Below, piece after piece: positions 2,952-33,706 of a stretch of DNA of 64,000 bases. The notes under the pieces are model-generated. The model did no database searches. It was given only the letters and a program-made list of their open reading frames with translations, and was not told the DNA's origin. The number at the start of each line of letters is the position of its first letter. The first letter of the stretch is position 1. Source of the stretch: an uncultured Prevotellaceae bacterium (GTDB taxonomy: Bacteria > Bacteroidota > Bacteroidia > Bacteroidales > Muribaculaceae); NCBI GenBank assembly GCA_900318205.1, contig ONJS01000002.1, forward strand, positions 18,689 through 82,688, given 5' to 3'. The position numbers were made by a program, and so were the translations under genes.

Positions 2952-4964
2952 ATGAAGAAATTATTATTTTTACTTTTAGGTGTTGCTGTTGTTGCATCTG
3001 CTGGTGCAGGGATTACCAAATCCCCGATCCAGAAGAAGGTTTCTAAAATGGAACGCACCAAGTCAAAAGTTGAGGTGGTGACTCGTGCCAATGGCGTGAT
3101 TAGTCCGTCAACTACTCTAAATTTCTATGGTTGGGACAAGATGCCCAAGCACATGTTAAGGTCTGATGCCGCTATCACTTGGGACTTTGAGGATTCAACC
3201 CAGTGGGCAGCTTTCTCTGCTGTTGATGTTGATGATGACGGCTTTAACTGGCAGTATTTTGACAATACGGGTTTGACCTCTAATCGTATGTCAACTCACA
3301 GTGGTGAAGGCGTCATAGCTTCGGCAAGCTATGACAAAACTAGTGGCAAAGCCTTGACTCCTGACAACTGGCTGATTTCGCCTGAGGTAACCCTGGGTGG
3401 TGTCTTGTCGTTCTGGGCTGAGGGTCAGGATGCCAGCTATTGCGCTGAGGTGTTCGCCGTTTATGTTTGCATTGGCGATCCTGTTGATGATACTTCTTTC
3501 CAGAAGGTAAGTCAGGATTTCACTGCTACTGGCGAGTTTGTAGAGTATGAAATCGACCTGAGCGCATATCAGGGCCAGGTAGGACACTTTGCAATCCGTC
3601 ACTACAACGTGACCGATATGTTCTGGCTGAACGTCGATGACATCACGCTCGATCCTGAAGCTGTCGCTCTGCCTTATCCCGTTGTTCCTGAGATTAATGT
3701 TACTCCCGCCACCACCTCTGCTTATGTAGAGTGGGCTGCAGATGAGGCTGCCGACGCTTACAACCTGCGCTGGAGGCAAAAATCAGATGGTAAGGCTTGG
3801 AGTTTCCCCGTGGATGGCTATGTGGCTGAGCTCGAAGAAGGCTGGTGGATTTATGATGCCGATGGAGACAGCACTTGCTGGTCTCTGTATTATGCTGACG
3901 ATGCCCAAACAGATCTTTGCTGGGGCTCTGGTTCTTATCAGGGTGGTGGTGCTTGCTCTCCCGATAACTATCTTGGAACACCTGACGTGCCCTTGAAGGG
4001 TGACCTCAAGTTTACCTTGTGGGGAGCTTCAGATAACTATCCCGAGGTGCTCCAGGTTTATGCCATGGTTGGTGAAGACATGTATCAGCTCTTTGAGGAT
4101 TCTCTCCTTTCCACGGTAGAACCTGTAGAGTACACTGTTAACCTGGATGCATTTGAGGGTGCTGAGGGCAGCATCATCTTCCGCAACTATAGCACTTACG
4201 ACCAGTGGATGCTGTTCCTCGATGACATTACTATCGGTACTATTAATCCGTGGAACGATGTTACGGGTATTACCGCTCCTAACTACACCATCGAGGGCCT
4301 GACCCCCGAGACTACCTATGAGGTACAGGTAATGGGTTACAACGAGGCTCACGAGTCTGACTGGTGTGACATCGTAGAATTCACGACCCTCGGTGAGGAG
4401 CCTGCAATTCCCGATGTTTACATGCTGGGTGGTGACGACCAGGGTTGGGCTCCTAACCGTGGTATCAAGTTCGACTACAACGCTGAGGAGAACATCTACA
4501 CCCTCAACTACACCTTCCCCGCCGAGACCAACTACTTCGGCTTCACCACCGTGCTTGCCGAGTATGATGATCAGGGTAGCTGGGATTACATTGAGCCCTA
4601 CCGCTTCGGTGCTATTGCCGATGGTGAAAACTTCATCTTCTATGATGAGTACAATGGCCAGCCTCTGTCTTTGACTTGGGATGAGTACAAGGCATTCCAG
4701 ATTGGTGCTGGTGAGTATGGCATCGTTGTTGACCTGACCAACATGAAGGTCACCCTTACCAAGGTTGAGCCTACCTACCTTCGTGGCGACGTTGACAACA
4801 GTGGTGATGTTAAGATCGGTGACGTTACTGCTCTGATCAATTACCTGCTCAGTGGCGACGCAACTAACGTTAACCTTCTGGCTGCTGACTGCGACGAGAA
4901 CGGCGATGTTAAGATTGCTGACGTTACTGCACTGATCAACTACCTGCTGTCTGGCAATTGGTAA
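2952..4964 (+). CDS. Tandem paralogue of 589..2631 (adhesin-FN3-SusE/F-like-dockerin)
   Basis: Same architecture; C-terminal third nearly identical to the upstream gene at DNA level. Confidence 0.85.
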   Translation: MKKLLFLLLGVAVVASAGAGITKSPIQKKVSKMERTKSKVEVVTRANGVISPSTTLNFYGWDKMPKHMLRSDAAITWDFEDSTQWAAFSAVDVDDDGFNWQYFDNTGLTSNRMSTHSGEGVIASASYDKTSGKALTPDNWLISPEVTLGGVLSFWAEGQDASYCAEVFAVYVCIGDPVDDTSFQKVSQDFTATGEFVEYEIDLSAYQGQVGHFAIRHYNVTDMFWLNVDDITLDPEAVALPYPVVPEINVTPATTSAYVEWAADEAADAYNLRWRQKSDGKAWSFPVDGYVAELEEGWWIYDADGDSTCWSLYYADDAQTDLCWGSGSYQGGGACSPDNYLGTPDVPLKGDLKFTLWGASDNYPEVLQVYAMVGEDMYQLFEDSLLSTVEPVEYTVNLDAFEGAEGSIIFRNYSTYDQWMLFLDDITIGTINPWNDVTGITAPNYTIEGLTPETTYEVQVMGYNEAHESDWCDIVEFTTLGEEPAIPDVYMLGGDDQGWAPNRGIKFDYNAEENIYTLNYTFPAETNYFGFTTVLAEYDDQGSWDYIEPYRFGAIADGENFIFYDEYNGQPLSLTWDEYKAFQIGAGEYGIVVDLTNMKVTLTKVEPTYLRGDVDNSGDVKIGDVTALINYLLSGDATNVNLLAADCDENGDVKIADVTALINYLLSGNW

Positions 4965-26749: not shown

Positions 26750-29221
26750 ATGAAACAGATCATGAGACTATTATTTGTTGCCGTTTGTCTAATGGCAATA
26801 TCCGGGATGACGGTGCAGGCAGTCCCCGTCGAGAATGGCGTGTCTTGGGCGTTGGCACAATACCGCTCGGCCCATATCAGTGACGTGAATTACAGCCTGT
26901 CGTTCACGGTGCCAGCCTTGAAGTCCCAACCTGTCTATTTCGAGGAAACGCTATTGTTTAATTGGACGGGTGACGAAGACCTGCAGATTGATTTTCAGGG
27001 CGAGTCCAATCAACTTTCCAATGAGATTATTGTCAATGGCACGAGATTGAAGACTGTGTTGAGCGATGAGCACATCGTGATTCCTCTCCAGTATTTAGTA
27101 CAGGGCGAGAACTCGGTGTCTATCAGCGGCTATAGTGGAGACAAGGCTTTGAACCGTAGCGATGACTACATGTACACCTTGTTCGTGCCCGACCATGCCC
27201 GCAGCGTGTTCCCTTGCTTTGACCAGCCTGATCTGAAGGCAGTTTTTGACCTAAAACTGGATATCCCTGAGGGCTGGGTAAGTATCAGCAACCAGACACG
27301 AAAGCCCATTCCCACCTACCTATTCTCGTTCACAACAGGAAAATTCCAGGTGAAGACGGCAACCCGCGACGGACGCCTGCTCACCGCCTTGTACCGAGAG
27401 ACCGATCCTGCCAAGGTGGCACAACTGCCCATCGTGTTTGACCAGGTGGCGCTGTCATTGCGATGGATGGAGGAATACACCGCCATTCCGTACCCCTTTG
27501 AGCACTATGGTTTTATTGTCCTGCCTGGCTACCAGTTCGGCGGCATGGAGCATCCCGGTTGCATTCAGTTCAACGACCAGCGCATCTTCCTCGGCCCGGA
27601 ACCTACGCCCGACGAGGAATTGTCACGCCTCAACCTCATTGCCCACGAGACGGCCCACATGTGGTTTGGCGACTTGGTGACCATGCGTTGGTTCGACGAC
27701 GTGTGGACCAAGGAAGTCTATGCCAATTTCATGGCCGATAAAATTTCACGAGAGCAGTTCCCTGACATTGACCATGACCTGGCCTTCATCAAGGCTCATT
27801 ATCCGATAGCCATGAGCACCGACCGCACTCGGGGCACTCATCCCATCCAGCAACCATTGGATAATCTGAACAAGGCTGGATTGCTCTATGGCAACATCAT
27901 CTATCACAAGGCGCCTATCATGATGAACAAACTCGAGAAGGAAAAAGGTGCCGATGCCCTGCAACTAGGGCTGCGCAGTTACCTCAGCCGTTATGCCTAC
28001 AGCAATGCCACCTGGGATGACCTGATTGTCGAACTCGACCGTTTCAACCCCGAGCACAGCGCCCAGTCCTTCAGCGACGTGTGGGTCAAGCAGAAGGGAA
28101 TGCCTGTCATCTATCCCATCCGAATGAGTGACGTTGTCCGTGTGCGTCAGTCCGACCCTTATGGCCGCAACTTGGTGTGGAAACAGGGCTTTGACATCGG
28201 CTATGTGGATGAGAACGGCAGGTTTAGCCAGCACCCCATTTATATGAACGATCGCGACTATTTGTTCTACTTGGGTTATAACGATGGCCTGTTTGTCAAC
28301 AGCAATGCCGAGGGCTATGGCCAGTTTAAACTTCGTTGTGAGGGCATCTCGAGGATGTCCGAAGCCTGGAAAACGATGGTCGACAATGACCTGGCCCGCT
28401 ATGCCGCCGTGCTCACCCTCTACGAGAACCTTCATCTGGGCACCATCAAGGCAACGGAACTGATGAATATGCTGCTCGAATTCCTCTCACATGAGCAAAA
28501 CGAACTGATTGCCTCGACGACATGCACGTTTATCAACAATTTGATTTCTCGTATTGATAGGGAACCTCGTGCCGAGATAGAACAGCAGTTGTTTGAAATG
28601 ATGCAGACACACAGCCTGTCGTCTGTGCGCCAGACGTTATTGCGCCAACTATCACTCAAGGCCATTTCTCCCAATGTTGTGGACAAGCTATATGACATCA
28701 GGGAAAAACATAGTGCTTCGTTCCTGAATAACCGTGACTATATGCGCATGGCCTATCATCTTGCCATCATGTTGCCTGAACGATGGCAGAACATTCTTGC
28801 CATTCAGAAGGAGCGGCTCACGACCGATGATGAGCGACGTGAGTTTGACTTTGTGTCTCGTGTCTGCAATCCCGACAGTAAGGTACAGCTGCAATTGTTC
28901 AATGAATTGCTTGAAGTGGAGAACCGTCGGGTAGAGCCCTGGACTCGCACCGCTTTGGCCTTGCTTAACGACCCGGAACGTGAACCATGGAGTAACCGTT
29001 ATCTGGAGCCTGGGCTTGATGAGTTAGAAGAAATCCAGCGCACGGGTGATATCTTCTTCCCCGGTTACTGGTTGTCAAGCCTGTTAGAAGGACACAGCAG
29101 TCAAGAGGCGCGTGAAAAGGTCACCAAGTGGATTGATGCACATCCACAGCTTGCTCCAGCTTTAAAGAACAAACTTCTGGAAAACGCTTATTGGCTGCTA
29201 GATATGCAAAATCCAAAGTGA
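26750..29221 (+). CDS. Secreted M1-family aminopeptidase
   Basis: GGMEH exopeptidase motif; HETAH-x18-E zinc motif; signal peptide. Confidence 0.9.
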   Translation: MKQIMRLLFVAVCLMAISGMTVQAVPVENGVSWALAQYRSAHISDVNYSLSFTVPALKSQPVYFEETLLFNWTGDEDLQIDFQGESNQLSNEIIVNGTRLKTVLSDEHIVIPLQYLVQGENSVSISGYSGDKALNRSDDYMYTLFVPDHARSVFPCFDQPDLKAVFDLKLDIPEGWVSISNQTRKPIPTYLFSFTTGKFQVKTATRDGRLLTALYRETDPAKVAQLPIVFDQVALSLRWMEEYTAIPYPFEHYGFIVLPGYQFGGMEHPGCIQFNDQRIFLGPEPTPDEELSRLNLIAHETAHMWFGDLVTMRWFDDVWTKEVYANFMADKISREQFPDIDHDLAFIKAHYPIAMSTDRTRGTHPIQQPLDNLNKAGLLYGNIIYHKAPIMMNKLEKEKGADALQLGLRSYLSRYAYSNATWDDLIVELDRFNPEHSAQSFSDVWVKQKGMPVIYPIRMSDVVRVRQSDPYGRNLVWKQGFDIGYVDENGRFSQHPIYMNDRDYLFYLGYNDGLFVNSNAEGYGQFKLRCEGISRMSEAWKTMVDNDLARYAAVLTLYENLHLGTIKATELMNMLLEFLSHEQNELIASTTCTFINNLISRIDREPRAEIEQQLFEMMQTHSLSSVRQTLLRQLSLKAISPNVVDKLYDIREKHSASFLNNRDYMRMAYHLAIMLPERWQNILAIQKERLTTDDERREFDFVSRVCNPDSKVQLQLFNELLEVENRRVEPWTRTALALLNDPEREPWSNRYLEPGLDELEEIQRTGDIFFPGYWLSSLLEGHSSQEAREKVTKWIDAHPQLAPALKNKLLENAYWLLDMQNPK

Positions 29222-29239: not shown

Positions 29240-31189
29240 TCAGGCATCAGTCTCTGTTTGGATTTCTTGTTGATGATTCTTTTCCAGTGACAGCAATTGC
29301 TGCTTGATGTTGGTGCCTGATGCATAACCACCCAGGCTACCATCACTGTTGATGACACGATGACAAGGGACGACGATGCTCACTGGGTTGTTGTGATTGG
29401 CTTGGGCTACAGCACGTGAAGCCGTCGGCTTGCCCATGCGTTTTGCTTCTTCTCCATAAGAGATGGTCACACCGTAGGGTATCTGTTTTAGCACATCCCA
29501 TGCCTTCATCTGGAATTCGGTGCCAACCAAGTGCACGGGCAGAGAGAATTCTTTACGTGTGCCATCGAAGTATTCTTTGAGTTGAATCATACAGTTGGCG
29601 AGTAGGGGAGACGTGGTTTCAACAGGCTTCAGTTTCATTTTCTTTGCCATGCTGTCAATGTCATCACCGTTCCAGCCGATATAGACCAGTCCTTGGGTGC
29701 AGGCACCAATTGTCAATGTGCCGAGGGGTGTCTCCATCGTAGTGTAGCAAAACTGTCCGTCATGAACCGGCGTGATGCCTAGCTCGCTTGCCTTGTCCAG
29801 CATGAGACGATAGGCCGACTCATAGTCGTTGGTGATAATGCCATCGAGAATGGCATCCTTGATGGCGTCCTTGATATAACCCACGGGGCGTGACGGGGCA
29901 AGCCCGAAGGTCTGCATGATTTCCTCGCCATCGATGGGCGGCTGGAAGTTGCGCACTCGGTCTTTCTCTTCGATATCCACCAGTTTCTGCTTCACCAAAT
30001 CAAAATTCTCGCGGAAACGTTGCACCTTGATCTGGTTTTTGCTGGTGATGTCGGCCTTGCACAGGGTCATCAGGTCATCGATATCATCTCCTGCGTCAAA
30101 CAGCAGTCGGCGCACTGCGCTGTCGGTCACCTCATCCTCAACCAGGGCAATGGGGCGCATGTGCAGTCCTACAAGTTTTTTCACATATTTCATCTGCTCG
30201 TTGAGGGGCAGACGCATTTTTGCAAAAATCTTGGGCACCATTTTCTCGCCGATGAAGTTGTGGTTGTGGAATGTCCATCCCAGTTGAGGATCCCAACGCT
30301 TGGTGCGTGCCTTGCCCACATCGTGTAGCAAGGCAGCCCAGCGCAGCCACACGTCATCACTGGCGGCAGCCACATTGTCGAGCACTTGCATGGTGTGCAT
30401 GAAATTGTCCTTATGGCCGCGCCCGTTGACCGTCTCAATGCCTTTCAGGGCAGCGAGCTCTGGGAAGATGAGCGGCAATAGGCCACTCTGGTCGAGCAGT
30501 AACCAGCCGCGTGAGGGTCGGGGAGTGCGCATGATCTTCATCAGTTCCTCAGCGATTCGCTCACGGGTGATGATGTGAATGCGTTTGGCATTTCGGCGGA
30601 TGGCATCAAACGTTTCGGGATAGATGTCAAAATCCAATTGTGTTGCAAAGCGCACTGCACGCATCATCCTCAACGGGTCGTCGCTGAAGGTGATATCAGG
30701 GTCGAGTGGGGTGCGGATGATGCGACGCTCCATGTCGCCAATGCCGTCAAATGGATCAAGCAGTTCACCATAGCGTGCTTGATTCAGGCAGATGGCCATA
30801 GCATTGATGGTGAAGTCGCGACGTTTCTGGTCATCATCCAGGGTGCCGTCTTCAACTATAGGGTTGCGGCTGTCGCGGCGATAGGATTCGCGGCGGGCAC
30901 CGACAAACTCCAGTTCCCATTGACGAGTCTTGACCTGTGCCGTACCATAGGTGCGGAAAACTGCTAAATGTGCACGCTTGCCAATGCGACGAGCAACCGC
31001 TTTGGCGACCTCAATGCCGCTACCGACGGTAACAAAGTCCATGTCGTTGCTCGGGCGTTCAAGGAAAATGTCCCTGACATACCCTCCCACGATATAACAT
31101 TTGCGTTGCAAATCGTCGGCAACATTACCCACCAGTTTTAAGATGGGTAATTCCACGTGAGCATCTATTTTTTGACGGTCAATTCTCAT
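29240..31189 (-). CDS. cca: CCA-adding/HD tRNA nucleotidyltransferase fused in frame to a methylated-DNA--protein-cysteine methyltransferase (Ogt) domain
   Basis: GGYVRD, DMDF, RRDFTINA, LLHDVGK, then IPYG..SY, SRAVA, PCHRV; no stop between the two parts. Confidence 0.88.
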   Translation of the reverse strand: MRIDRQKIDAHVELPILKLVGNVADDLQRKCYIVGGYVRDIFLERPSNDMDFVTVGSGIEVAKAVARRIGKRAHLAVFRTYGTAQVKTRQWELEFVGARRESYRRDSRNPIVEDGTLDDDQKRRDFTINAMAICLNQARYGELLDPFDGIGDMERRIIRTPLDPDITFSDDPLRMMRAVRFATQLDFDIYPETFDAIRRNAKRIHIITRERIAEELMKIMRTPRPSRGWLLLDQSGLLPLIFPELAALKGIETVNGRGHKDNFMHTMQVLDNVAAASDDVWLRWAALLHDVGKARTKRWDPQLGWTFHNHNFIGEKMVPKIFAKMRLPLNEQMKYVKKLVGLHMRPIALVEDEVTDSAVRRLLFDAGDDIDDLMTLCKADITSKNQIKVQRFRENFDLVKQKLVDIEEKDRVRNFQPPIDGEEIMQTFGLAPSRPVGYIKDAIKDAILDGIITNDYESAYRLMLDKASELGITPVHDGQFCYTTMETPLGTLTIGACTQGLVYIGWNGDDIDSMAKKMKLKPVETTSPLLANCMIQLKEYFDGTRKEFSLPVHLVGTEFQMKAWDVLKQIPYGVTISYGEEAKRMGKPTASRAVAQANHNNPVSIVVPCHRVINSDGSLGGYASGTNIKQQLLSLEKNHQQEIQTETDA

Positions 31190-31208: not shown

Positions 31209-31267
31209 CAAAATTAATGCTTTTTCTGCGCTTTTTTTGTTCATATCTGCAAAAATCATTAATTTTG
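31209..31267. promoter_or_regulatory. Divergent promoters for cca (-, 31209-31216) and rho (+, 31260-31267)
   Basis: TAATTTTG on each strand; the rho promoter has TTTG at 31236-31239 (20 nt spacer). Confidence 0.7.
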
Positions 31268-31552
31268 CACCGCAAAACAAGATCACAAAGGATGTTTTGC
31301 GACGCTATTCATTAATCAATACCGAATCCCCCGTTCTTTTCCTATCTCTTTTATTCTGAGGAAATGACAATCTATATATTTTTGGCTGATTGTTCATATA
31401 CGGGCGATTTGAATTGAAGAAATGAGGTTACTAGAACAGACAAATCATTAGTATAATTTGGAATATCATGCGTTGTTGCGCATGGCATGGTGTAGTGAAA
31501 CAGAGTGGCTGTTTTTTATTGTCACACCATGATAGCTTTATATAATTTTTAT

Positions 31553-33706
31553 ATGTATAACATTAATCAATTAAATGCGATGAGCGACGAACAACTTCGT
31601 GAGCTCGCCAAGTCTATGGGTATTAAGCGCGTTGATTCGTTTAGCCATGATGATCTTGTGTTTCAGGTTTTGGACCATCAGGCAGAGACAGAAGCAGCTA
31701 ATGCTCCTGAACCCACTACCAAACGTCGTCGTGAACGCATTCGCCAGCCGGCAGCCAAAGCAAATGGTAATGAAGTGATCAAGGACGATGCCGTGGCACC
31801 CAAGAACCAAAGTAAAGAGAAAAACGATATAGTAGAAACCAACGAGGTTACCAAGCCCGTTGAAAAAGAAGCACCTGAGCCCACCGAGAAACCTAAAGCT
31901 CAGAAAAAAGATAAAGACAAAGACAAAGAAGCAAGCGATACGCAGGAACCGCCTAAACGCAAGCGTGGCCGCCCTTCAGCTGCCGAAAAAGCAGCTCGTG
32001 AAATAGCGTTGAAAAACAGTCAAGAAGAACAACCCGTTGCTGAAGAGCTGACTGCCGATCAGCAAGAGCAGCCAGCAGCCGAAGTGGTTGTTAGCGAGCA
32101 AGCTCCTCGCCGTCGTGGTCGCAAAACCAAACAGGTCGTTGATGAGCAACCGGTTCTGCCCTTTGACAATACTGAGCTTCAGCCTGAACAAGAGATGTTG
32201 GAGCCTATGACCGAGGAACCTGTTTATGATGAGTCATTGCAAGAGCCCATCAATGAGGAAATCGGCTATATGCCGGAGAATGAGCCTGAAATGATGGCAC
32301 CCCAACCCGAGGAACAGCATGAGAGGGAGGATGTCTCACTCAATACGTTCTTCAATACAGGTAGCGGATTCACTTTCAAACCTCGTACTCAGCAGGAACG
32401 CGAAGAAGCAATGCGCAAGGCCGAGGAAGAACGCCGCCGTCAGGCTGAACAGGCCGCCGTTGCTCCCATTGTTATCCAGGAACCTAAAGTGGTAAAGGAG
32501 AGCAAGAGCAAGAAGCGCAAGATGAAACAGCAGCAACAGCAACAGATTGCTGAAGTCAATCCCTATCTGGACCAGCCCTATAACTTCGACGGAATTCTTG
32601 AGGCACAAGGTGTGCTCGACATCGCCCCCGAGGGTTATGGCTTCCTGCGCTCCAGTGATTATAATTATCTCACGTCTCCTGATGATATTTACGTACAGCA
32701 GTCCCAGATCAAGGCTTACGGCCTCAAGACTGGTGACGTTATCGAGGGAACCATTCGCCCGCCCATGGAGGGTGAGAAGTATTTCCCGATGAGTGAGATA
32801 CATCTGATCAATGGCCGCACGCCTGCTTATGTCCGTGACCGCGTACCGTTTGAGCATCTGGTTCCTCTGTTCCCCGATGAGAAGTTTGATCTCGTGAGCA
32901 AAACCCATCCCACGGTTTCACAACGCGTGGTGGATATGTTCTCGCCCATCGGTAAAGGACAGCGCGGCCTCATCGTCGCTCAGCCCAAGACAGGTAAGAC
33001 CATGCTCTTGAAGGAGATTGCCAATGCCATCTCGGAGAATCATCCTGAAACCTATATGATCATCCTGCTCATTGATGAACGTCCTGAGGAGGTGACCGAT
33101 ATGGCTCGTAGTGTCAATGCCGAAGTCATCGCTTCTACCTTTGACGAGCCGGCTGACCGCCATGTCAAGATTGCCGACCTCGTATTGAGCAAGGCCAAAC
33201 GCCTGGTAGAATGTGGTCATGATGTGGTCATCCTGCTTGACTCGATTACTCGTCTGGCTCGTGCCTACAACACCATTGCTCCTGCTTCAGGAAAAATCCT
33301 GACGGGTGGTGTGGATGCCAACGCATTGCAGCGACCCAAGCGCTTCTTTGGTGCTGCCCGTAATATCGAGGGCGGTGGTAGTCTTACTATTATTGCCACT
33401 GCATTGACCGAGACTGGCTCCAAGATGGATGAAGTGATCTTTGAGGAATTCAAGGGTACTGGTAACATGGAGTTGCAGCTTGACCGCAAGTTGTCCAACA
33501 AGCGTATCTTCCCGGCTGTGGATGTCATGGCATCAAGTACACGTCGTGACGACTTGCTGCTGCCGCAGGATACCTTGAACAAGATGTGGATCATCCGTCG
33601 CTTCTTGAGCGACCGCACTTCGGTCGAGGCCATGGAGTTTGTAAAAGAGCGTATGGATCGAACCCGTGATAACGAGGAGTTCCTGCTCACCATGCAACAA
33701 GGCTAA
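31553..33706 (+). CDS. rho: Transcription termination factor Rho with long N-terminal disordered insertion
   Basis: [41 protein letters not shown]. Confidence 0.97.

What the first reader, a model, noticed from the sequence alone, without database searches (positions are those of the whole stretch)
29240..31189. CCA-adding enzyme fused to an O6-alkylguanine methyltransferase
Seen: one 649 aa ORF. The tRNA nucleotidyltransferase/HD part runs through LGITPVHDGQ (about 29760) straight into a full Ogt domain with intact PCHR. Known: these are normally separate proteins, and Ogt is a single-turnover suicide enzyme. Inference: the fusion could target dealkylation to tRNA, or link alkylation damage to turnover of a tRNA-maturation enzyme. 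It could also be a simple stop-codon loss.
Basis: partly seen in the sequence, partly recalled or inferred. Interest (0 to 1): 0.65.

Follow-up and report, generated by a model that had tools for sequence, protein, structure and literature searches.

The report
CCA-adding enzyme fused to Ogt
A group of uncultured rumen and gut Muribaculaceae bacteria makes its tRNA CCA-adding enzyme and its only O6-alkylguanine repair protein as one conserved polypeptide, a real domain combination that I found described in no paper, though nothing yet shows that the two activities work together.

Summary
Window 29240-31189 (minus strand) is one 649-aa ORF. It encodes a class II tRNA nucleotidyltransferase with an HD domain (residues 1-~476), followed after about four residues by a complete two-domain Ogt with an intact PCHR site.

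It is neither an assembly error nor a recent stop-codon loss.
- The identical protein was assembled on 50 contigs.
- More than 120 clusters (83-100% identity) show all five Pfam domains.
- The fusion is present in most species of this Sodaliphilus-like genus and in two neighbouring GTDB genera.
- Both halves are under purifying selection (dN/dS 0.02-0.07 and 0.10-0.18).

The other 32 genera sampled in the family, and other Bacteroidales families, keep the two genes apart and not adjacent.

The fusion arose once or twice and was lost at least two or three times. In every unfused genome checked, an unrelated stand-alone ogt is present. In fused genomes it is the only Ogt and usually the only CCA enzyme, and about 70% of this genome's tRNA genes lack an encoded CCA.

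Most likely it is a bifunctional protein with two independent housekeeping activities. No sequence feature supports tRNA-directed dealkylation. Turnover coupled to alkylation damage remains untested. It is a new variant of known kinds, of moderate interest.

The parts
29240..31189 (-). Whole fusion gene, 649 codons plus stop (TGA at 29240-29242)
31209..31216 (-). TAATTTTG, 20-27 nt upstream of the ATG. It matches the Bacteroidetes -7 promoter consensus TAnnTTTG (consensus from my own knowledge). Its role is inferred only.
30713..31099 (-). Class II nucleotidyltransferase head (PolyA_pol, residues 31-159). It carries motif A, GGYVRD (31070-31087), and the catalytic DMD (residues 49-51, within DMDFV at 31031-45).
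30449..30682 (-). Neck. Contains motif D, DDPLR (residues 170-174), and PolyA_pol_RNAbd (186-247). Motif B, RRDFTINA, lies just upstream at 30800-30823.
30146..30403 (-). HD phosphohydrolase domain (residues 263-348). H289-D290 are invariant.
29765..30145 (-). Helical C-terminal body/tail of the nucleotidyltransferase (residues 349-475). Unfused orthologues end here.
29720..29782 (-). Fusion junction, LGITPVHDGQFCYTTMETPLG (residues 470-490). About 4 residues separate the natural nucleotidyltransferase end from the start of Ogt homology. G478-x-L-C is conserved in the genus. AF2 pLDDT is 96.
29531..29746 (-). Ogt N-terminal (ribonuclease-like) domain, residues 482-553
29279..29518 (-). Ogt catalytic and DNA-binding domain, residues 558-637. 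Includes SY577GEEA, R592 (the arginine-finger position), N600-P and the acceptor Cys609 in PCHR (29357-29368).

Best explanation
This is a stable, lineage-specific gene fusion that makes one bifunctional polypeptide.

The N-terminal ~476 residues are the cell's housekeeping class II CCA-adding tRNA nucleotidyltransferase, with an HD phosphohydrolase domain. It builds or repairs the 3' CCA end of tRNAs. The C-terminal ~170 residues are a complete O6-alkylguanine-DNA alkyltransferase. It flips out an O6-alkylguanine and transfers the alkyl group irreversibly to Cys609.

The fusion arose in an ancestor of a Muribaculaceae sub-clade: the Sodaliphilus-like genus of the window plus two neighbouring GTDB genera. 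An ogt gene was joined to the 3' end of cca. This happened once, or at most twice.

I infer that the two halves act independently on their usual substrates (tRNA 3' ends and alkylated DNA). The benefit or neutrality of the fusion would then lie in constitutive co-expression. That the two domains are present and intact, and that the protein is the sole copy of each, is shown by the data. That they act independently, and that the protein is made and stays as one chain, is inferred.
For: Domains and catalytic residues:
- The domain architecture and all catalytic motifs are intact.
- PCHR is invariant in all 34 fused sequences examined.
- Fold level: the AF2 model has pLDDT 88.4. Its N-terminal part matches CC-, A- and CCA-adding enzyme structures (TM 0.6-0.69 normalised to the target). 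Its C-terminal part matches M. tuberculosis OGT at 2.3-2.6 A rmsd (TM 0.82-0.86).
- Sequence match to M. tuberculosis OGT, E 1e-30.

Sole copies:
- It is the only PF01035 domain in the genome.
- The fused genomes of the two neighbouring genera show no other full-length Ogt match; two of them (G065, G188) carry a short, weak second match to the catalytic domain.
- 39 of 41 genomes of the genus that are at least 90% complete have exactly one PolyA_pol head.
- By my count of the list, about 29 of 41 tRNA genes lack an encoded CCA, so full CCA addition is required.

Conservation:
- Identical protein on 50 contigs, and more than 120 clusters with all five domains.
- Present in most species of the genus.
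- dN/dS is 0.02-0.07 for the nucleotidyltransferase part and 0.10-0.18 for the Ogt part.

Separability:
- Unfused clades are nested among fused ones.
- Each unfused genome checked carries a stand-alone Ogt of a different clade.
- No fused-specific substitutions were seen in the Ogt recognition helix or active site.
Against: - There is no protein-level or activity evidence. Proteolytic separation after translation cannot be excluded.
- The junction in this genus has essentially no linker, carries conserved residues (G-x-L-C), and is modelled with pLDDT 96 and pTM 0.74. That hints at a fixed inter-domain geometry rather than two beads on a string.
- Retention of a suicide domain on an essential enzyme across three genera could reflect a functional link.
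- If the fusion arose twice (not excluded), convergence would argue for selection on the fusion itself.
Confidence: 0.68

Rival explanations
1. Damage-coupled control. Ogt is consumed by its own reaction, and alkylated alkyltransferases are structurally destabilised. Alkylation of Cys609 would therefore inactivate or destabilise the whole fusion. That would lower CCA addition, and hence the supply of chargeable tRNA, during alkylation stress, acting as a built-in brake on translation.
For: - The fusion carries the only Ogt and usually the only CCA enzyme.
- Most tRNA genes need CCA added.
- The junction is tight, conserved and confidently modelled.
- It has been retained for a long time under purifying selection.
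[quoted passage not shown] That alkylation itself destabilises AGT is from my own knowledge.
Against: - Nothing here tests it directly.
- The domain was lost and replaced by a stand-alone Ogt at least two or three times without obvious compensation.
- Linker length varies (+5 to +13 residues) in the two sister genera.
- The fate of alkylated bacterial Ogt is not established by anything I retrieved.
Confidence: 0.12
2. RNA-directed repair. The CCA enzyme part docks tRNA and so presents it to the tethered Ogt domain, which removes O6-alkylguanine from tRNA.
For: - The CCA enzyme binds every tRNA, and the HD domain already gives it an RNA-end repair flavour (NF008137 'multifunctional CCA addition/repair protein').
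- The Ogt is attached directly to the tRNA-binding tail.
Against: - Human MGMT is reported to be hindered on RNA by a clash between the 2'-OH and Gly131 (PMC10814553).
- By my own residue count, which rests on the human sequence recalled from memory, the equivalent position here is Ala in this genus, Gly in the two sister genera, and Ala in many stand-alone Muribaculaceae Ogts. On that reading there is no fused-specific adaptation.
- A stoichiometric suicide enzyme is a poor match for an abundant RNA.
- As the only Ogt in the genome it must still serve DNA.
- Stand-alone Ogts replace it freely.
Confidence: 0.08
3. The Ogt domain has been co-opted as a non-catalytic nucleic-acid-binding appendage of the CCA enzyme, or is on its way to decay.
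For: The Ogt half evolves 3-5 times faster at the protein level than the nucleotidyltransferase half.
Against: - PCHR, the Arg finger, Asn-Pro, Tyr and the C-terminal Glu are kept in all fused sequences.
- dN/dS is 0.10-0.18.
- No other Ogt is present in these genomes.
Confidence: 0.05
4. Artefact: a mis-assembly or sequencing error joined two adjacent genes.
For: The genome is a metagenome-assembled draft (53 contigs). Reads could not be inspected.
Against: - The same protein was assembled on 50 contigs.
- 47 further fused loci, from other studies and host animals, were retrieved. Within this genus they share the same junction register.
- The Ogt and nucleotidyltransferase trees agree on the main groupings.
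Confidence: 0.01

Closest known systems
Bacterial class II CCA-adding enzymes with an HD domain (E. coli Cca type, NF008137; actinobacterial type, TIGR02692)
   Same: - Head, neck and body/tail architecture.
- Motifs A-D: GGxVRD, DxD, RRD, DDPLR.
- An HD domain with the H...HD signature.
- Fold matches to the T. maritima, B. stearothermophilus and A. aeolicus enzymes.
   Different: - Scores lie below the NCBIfam equivalog cut-offs (350 vs 438.8 bits for TIGR02692), so it is a distinct Bacteroidota subfamily.
- It carries a 170-residue Ogt at its C-terminus.
Stand-alone Ogt / O6-alkylguanine-DNA alkyltransferases (M. tuberculosis OGT 4BHB/4WX9, E. coli Ada-C 1SFE, human MGMT 1EH6)
   Same: - Two-domain fold.
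- PCHR acceptor cysteine, Arg finger, Asn hinge, Tyr and helix-turn-helix.
- 38-40% identity and 2.3-2.6 A rmsd to M. tuberculosis OGT.
   Different: - It is not a free ~19 kDa protein. Its N-terminus is fused with almost no linker to the tail of another enzyme.
Known natural alkyltransferase fusions: Ada (N-Ada regulator plus C-Ada), AGTendoV of Ferroplasma acidarmanus, archaeal ATL-EndoV, C. elegans AGT-2 (listed in PMC10779285)
   Same: An alkyltransferase module joined to a second nucleic-acid-related function in one chain.
   Different: - The endonuclease V and histone-like fusions are described as carrying only the C-terminal half of AGT; here the whole Ogt is kept.
- Those partners are an alkylation-response regulator, a DNA-repair endonuclease or a histone-like domain. 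Here the partner is an RNA (tRNA) maturation enzyme.
Other C-terminal extensions of the same nucleotidyltransferase-HD family found here (P0129 with a Ham1/ITPase domain; the P0145 cluster with an unassigned ~230-aa tail)
   Same: Extra modules are attached at the same point, the C-terminal end of the tail.
   Different: - The partners differ.
- The Ham1 fusion is a singleton cluster seen on 2 contigs, whereas the Ogt fusion is fixed in many species.

Membership tests
Class II tRNA nucleotidyltransferase (CCA-adding enzyme) | PolyA_pol head with motif A (GGxVRD...DxD carboxylates) | tested here: met
   PF01743, E 8e-27. G35 G36 V38 R39 D40 D49 D51 are invariant in 63 sequences.
Class II tRNA nucleotidyltransferase (CCA-adding enzyme) | Motifs B (RRD), C and D (E/DDxxR nucleotide template) | tested here: met
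   R123 R124 D125, D145-D152 and D170 D171 P172 L173 R174 are invariant.
Class II tRNA nucleotidyltransferase (CCA-adding enzyme) | Overall head-neck-body-tail fold | tested here: met
   Foldseek gives E 1e-14 to 7e-18 and TM 0.6-0.69 (normalised to the target) against 3WFR, 3H37, 5HC9, 1MIV and 6QXN.
Class II tRNA nucleotidyltransferase (CCA-adding enzyme) | Adds the complete CCA (rather than CC only, A only, or poly(A)) | not testable with these tools
   Inferred from two facts. It is the sole PolyA_pol head in 39 of 41 genomes of the genus. About 29 of 41 tRNA genes lack an encoded CCA. It scores below the NCBIfam equivalog cut-offs.
HD-domain phosphohydrolase | H...HD...D metal-binding signature | tested here: met
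   PF01966, E 2e-10, and TIGR00277 above its cut-off. H259/H265, H289-D290 and H310 are invariant.
O6-alkylguanine-DNA alkyltransferase (Ogt/MGMT) | PCHR motif with the acceptor cysteine | tested here: met
   Residues 608-611. Invariant in all 34 fused sequences examined.
O6-alkylguanine-DNA alkyltransferase (Ogt/MGMT) | Helix-turn-helix with Arg finger, Tyr, Asn-Pro hinge, and C-terminal Glu of the catalytic network | tested here: met
   SY577G, R592AVA, N600-P and LE in KQQLLSLEK align with M. tuberculosis OGT and are conserved. The numbering against human MGMT comes from my own knowledge of that sequence.
O6-alkylguanine-DNA alkyltransferase (Ogt/MGMT) | Two-domain fold including the N-terminal ribonuclease-like domain | tested here: met
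   PF02870, E 7.5e-11. TM 0.82-0.86 and rmsd 2.3-2.6 A to 4BHB/4WX9 over ~161 residues.
O6-alkylguanine-DNA alkyltransferase (Ogt/MGMT) | Stoichiometric alkyl transfer from O6-alkylguanine in DNA | not testable with these tools
   Needs a biochemical assay.

The most novel reading that the evidence does not exclude
The fusion is a functional unit. Suicide alkylation of the Ogt domain may switch off or destabilise the cell's only CCA-adding enzyme, so that alkylation damage throttles tRNA maturation and translation. Alternatively, the CCA enzyme may deliver tRNA to the Ogt domain for RNA dealkylation. Either would be a new link between direct damage reversal and tRNA biogenesis.
Probability: 0.18. 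Interest if true: 0.8.

Novelty: new variant of a known kind. Interest (0 to 1): 0.42.

Why it matters
Both domains are textbook enzymes, and I found no report of this pairing. Three full-text searches returned nothing on it. A 2023 review of the alkyltransferase family lists fusions only with a regulator (Ada), endonuclease V and a histone-like domain.

An essential tRNA-maturation enzyme is permanently tied here to a protein that destroys its own activity with each repair event. That makes a natural experiment on whether suicide repair can be coupled to another cellular process. It also provides a natural C-terminal 'SNAP-tag-like' module on a CCA enzyme.

If the halves are independent, as I think most likely, this is a Rosetta-stone fusion of modest evolutionary interest. 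It also shows that NCBI's name (methylated-DNA--[protein]-cysteine S-methyltransferase) and JGI's name ('poly(A) polymerase') each describe only half of the protein.

Tried and rejected

2. I looked for a pre-fusion state with cca and ogt adjacent and found none. In unfused relatives the genes are far apart or on different contigs. No Ogt remnant lies within 4 kb of the unfused cca loci.

3. Apparent close stand-alone relatives of the fused Ogt turned out to be artefacts.
- P0281 sits behind a 100-N scaffold gap inside a fused gene.
- P0287 is a frameshifted or mis-assembled fused gene.
- The other hits above 56% identity are fragments on contigs of roughly 0.6-2.4 kb.

4. One versus two origins could not be resolved.
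- The Ogt domains of this genus and of the two sister genera each form a clade (support 94 and 99).
- They are not sisters in the best tree.
- Holding them together is not rejected (AU p 0.47 and 0.30).

5. A conserved internal start codon for a separate Ogt is rejected. Met484 is not conserved: 9 of 47 fused orthologues have no Met anywhere in residues 475-492, and Ile, Ala, Gly or Ser occur at that position.

6. Recent horizontal acquisition of the Ogt half gets only weak support. GC3 is 0.54 against 0.63 for the nucleotidyltransferase half, and the domain broadly co-diverges with the host gene.

7. The one single-contig genome of the genus (G361) is unfused. I therefore did not identify a complete or cultured genome that carries the fusion.

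8. A sigma-70-type promoter and terminator scan gave nothing above the shuffled background.

Full report
**Observation**

Window 29240-31189 on the minus strand is one uninterrupted 649-codon ORF that starts with ATG. Pfam places five domains on it, all above their gathering scores:
- PolyA_pol head, residues 31-159
- PolyA_pol_RNAbd, 186-247
- HD, 263-348
- Methyltransf_1N, 482-553
- DNA_binding_1 (the Ogt catalytic domain), 558-637

NCBIfam gives the best match for the first 450 residues to actinobacterial-type CCA tRNA nucleotidyltransferase (TIGR02692, 350 bits, below the 438.8 equivalog cut-off). The tail matches TIGR00589 'ogt' (110 bits against a cut-off of 46).

**Is it real?**

Other evidence is strong.
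- The identical protein is on record from 50 contigs.
- More than 120 clusters at 83-100% identity all carry the five domains.
- A scan of one genome per species returned 47 further full-length fused loci. They come from rumen and gut MAGs of cattle, buffalo, goat, sheep, yak, deer and horse, labelled Prevotellaceae, Muribaculaceae, Bacteroidales or Sodaliphilus.
- The junction has no long homopolymer.
- Within this genus the junction is in the same register in every sequence.

An assembly artefact is excluded for practical purposes.

**Distribution and history**

Almost all genomes of the window's GTDB genus have the full-length fusion, at 68-84% identity. It also occurs in all sampled members of a second genus (g48) and in some members of a third (g41). 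The other 32 genera sampled in the family, and 16 other Bacteroidales families, have a ~475-aa nucleotidyltransferase-HD protein. Where an Ogt was seen in them, it is encoded elsewhere. In the two unfused relatives where both positions were seen, the genes are not neighbours: they are 54 kb apart in G025 and on different contigs in G020.

In a library of 1.84 billion representatives clustered at 50% identity, only one full-length fused representative and two fragments appear. The architecture is therefore confined to this narrow lineage.

A tree of the nucleotidyltransferase part puts the three genera, plus one unfused lineage, in one clade. Unfused groups are nested among fused ones, and at least four state changes are needed, for example one gain and three losses.

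The Ogt domains of this genus form one clade (support 92-94). Those of the other two genera form another (99). Whether these two clades are sisters is unresolved, because constraining them together is not rejected (AU p 0.47 and 0.30).

The linker differs among the genera:
- About four residues, with a conserved G-x-L-C, in this genus.
- 7-8 extra residues in g48.
- 5-13 variable extra residues in g41.

The fusion therefore arose once or twice and was lost at least two or three times.

Every unfused genome checked in these genera carries a stand-alone Ogt from one of two other clades. The fused genomes show no second full-length Ogt match; two g41 genomes (G065, G188) have a short, weak second match to the catalytic domain. 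This complementary pattern says that the fused domain is the cell's Ogt and that a free Ogt can replace it.

**Both halves are functional genes**

Pairwise dN/dS is 0.02-0.07 for the nucleotidyltransferase part and 0.10-0.18 for the Ogt part.

The nucleotidyltransferase motifs are invariant across 63 fused and unfused sequences:
- Motif A: GGxVRD and D49/D51
- Motif B: RRDFTINA
- Motif C
- Motif D: DDPLR
- The HD signature: H289-D290

In the Ogt part, PCHR, the Arg-finger position, Asn-Pro, the SY(G) tyrosine and the C-terminal Glu are kept in all 34 fused sequences from the three genera.

An AlphaFold2 model built on the 63-sequence alignment has mean pLDDT 88.4 and pTM 0.74. Its N-terminal part matches tRNA nucleotidyltransferase structures from A. 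aeolicus, T. maritima, B. stearothermophilus and a psychrophile (TM 0.6-0.69 normalised to the target). Its C-terminal part superposes on M. tuberculosis OGT at 2.3-2.6 A.

**Cellular role**

The fusion holds the only PF01035 domain in the genome.

The genome has a second nucleotidyltransferase-HD paralogue, 36% identical, beside an RtcB RNA ligase gene on another contig. That paralogue is sporadic: 39 of 41 near-complete genomes of the genus have a single PolyA_pol head, which is the fusion or its unfused orthologue.

By my count of the aragorn list, about 29 of 41 tRNA genes in this genome do not encode CCA. The fused enzyme must therefore add the whole CCA and is very likely essential.

**Mechanism**

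The best-supported reading is a bifunctional protein whose halves do their ordinary jobs independently. One half adds or repairs CCA on tRNA (plus HD phosphohydrolase activity). The other performs single-turnover removal of O6-alkyl groups from DNA guanine. The fusion ensures constitutive co-expression.

Arguments for independence:
- The Ogt domain has been replaced repeatedly by free Ogts.
- The linker is variable in the sister genera.
- No fused-specific change is seen in the Ogt recognition helix.

On the last point, a review reports that a 2'-OH clash at Gly131 hinders human MGMT on RNA (PMC10814553). By my own residue count, from the human sequence as I recall it, the equivalent position is Ala in this genus, Gly in the sister genera, and Ala in many free Muribaculaceae Ogts.

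Arguments for some coupling:
- The junction in this genus is almost linker-less, conserved and confidently modelled (pLDDT 96).
- A self-inactivating domain has been kept for a long time on an essential enzyme.
- A convergent second origin is possible.

I put independent bifunctionality at about 0.68, damage-coupled control at about 0.12, tRNA-directed repair at about 0.08, a non-catalytic appendage at about 0.05, and an artefact at about 0.01.

**Comparison with known systems**

Each half passes the sequence- and fold-level tests for its family. Activity could not be tested.

Known natural alkyltransferase fusions are Ada, AGTendoV and ATL-EndoV of archaea, and C. elegans AGT-2 (PMC10779285). 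None involves an RNA-maturation enzyme. The endonuclease V and histone-like fusions are described as keeping only the C-terminal half of AGT. Three full-text searches found no paper on a CCA-Ogt fusion.

Public annotations name the protein either methylated-DNA--[protein]-cysteine S-methyltransferase or 'poly(A) polymerase'. An earlier first-stage note of this scan saw the same architecture in another genome, which agrees with the distribution found here.

**Verdict**

This is a real, conserved domain architecture, undescribed as far as my searches reach, made of two well-known enzymes. It is a new variant of known kinds and probably has no new chemistry. Interest is moderate (0.42). It would be high only if the coupling hypotheses were confirmed, and these are cheap to test with recombinant protein.

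Noticed in passing
own genome contig C50 (locus L003: 89-1261 and 1381-2841, + strand): A second nucleotidyltransferase-HD paralogue (486 aa, 36% identical to the fusion's N-terminal part) lies 120 bp downstream of an RtcB-family RNA ligase gene. This looks like an RNA-repair pair. The paralogue was found in only a few genomes of the genus, and only 2 of the 41 near-complete ones.
   Followed up: partly
P0129 (687 aa): A relative of the same nucleotidyltransferase-HD family carries a Ham1/ITPase (non-canonical NTP pyrophosphatase) domain at residues 483-671. That is the same attachment point as the Ogt. It is a singleton cluster seen on 2 contigs.
   Followed up: partly
P0145 cluster (719 aa, 24 members): Another nucleotidyltransferase-HD relative has a ~230-residue C-terminal extension with no Pfam match. 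P0255 (651 aa) has a weak uridine-kinase/PRK-like tail that scores below the cut-off.
   Followed up: no
window 31505-33706 (+): The Rho termination factor is transcribed divergently from the fusion gene. It has a ~330-residue acidic/basic low-complexity N-terminal extension before the conserved core (NCBIfam match to residues 328-730). Rho holds the same divergent position in several fused relatives (L010, L036, L020, L046, L047, L044) but was not found beside the unfused loci checked.
   Followed up: partly
window 26750-29221 (+): An M1-family aminopeptidase N-like gene converges on the fusion gene. Only 18 bp separate the two stop codons, and no terminator-like hairpin was found between them.
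   Followed up: no
L066 (4001-5885), L133 (1-1301), L132 (about 3820-3945): Three public copies of the fused gene are broken. Two have a frameshift (L066, L133) and one has a 100-N scaffold gap (L132). These produce spurious 'stand-alone Ogt' gene calls in the databases.
   Followed up: yes
G361:C1:3058300-3061400 (L129): The only single-contig genome of the genus has the unfused 475-aa form. It belongs to the sub-clade that lost the Ogt domain.
   Followed up: yes
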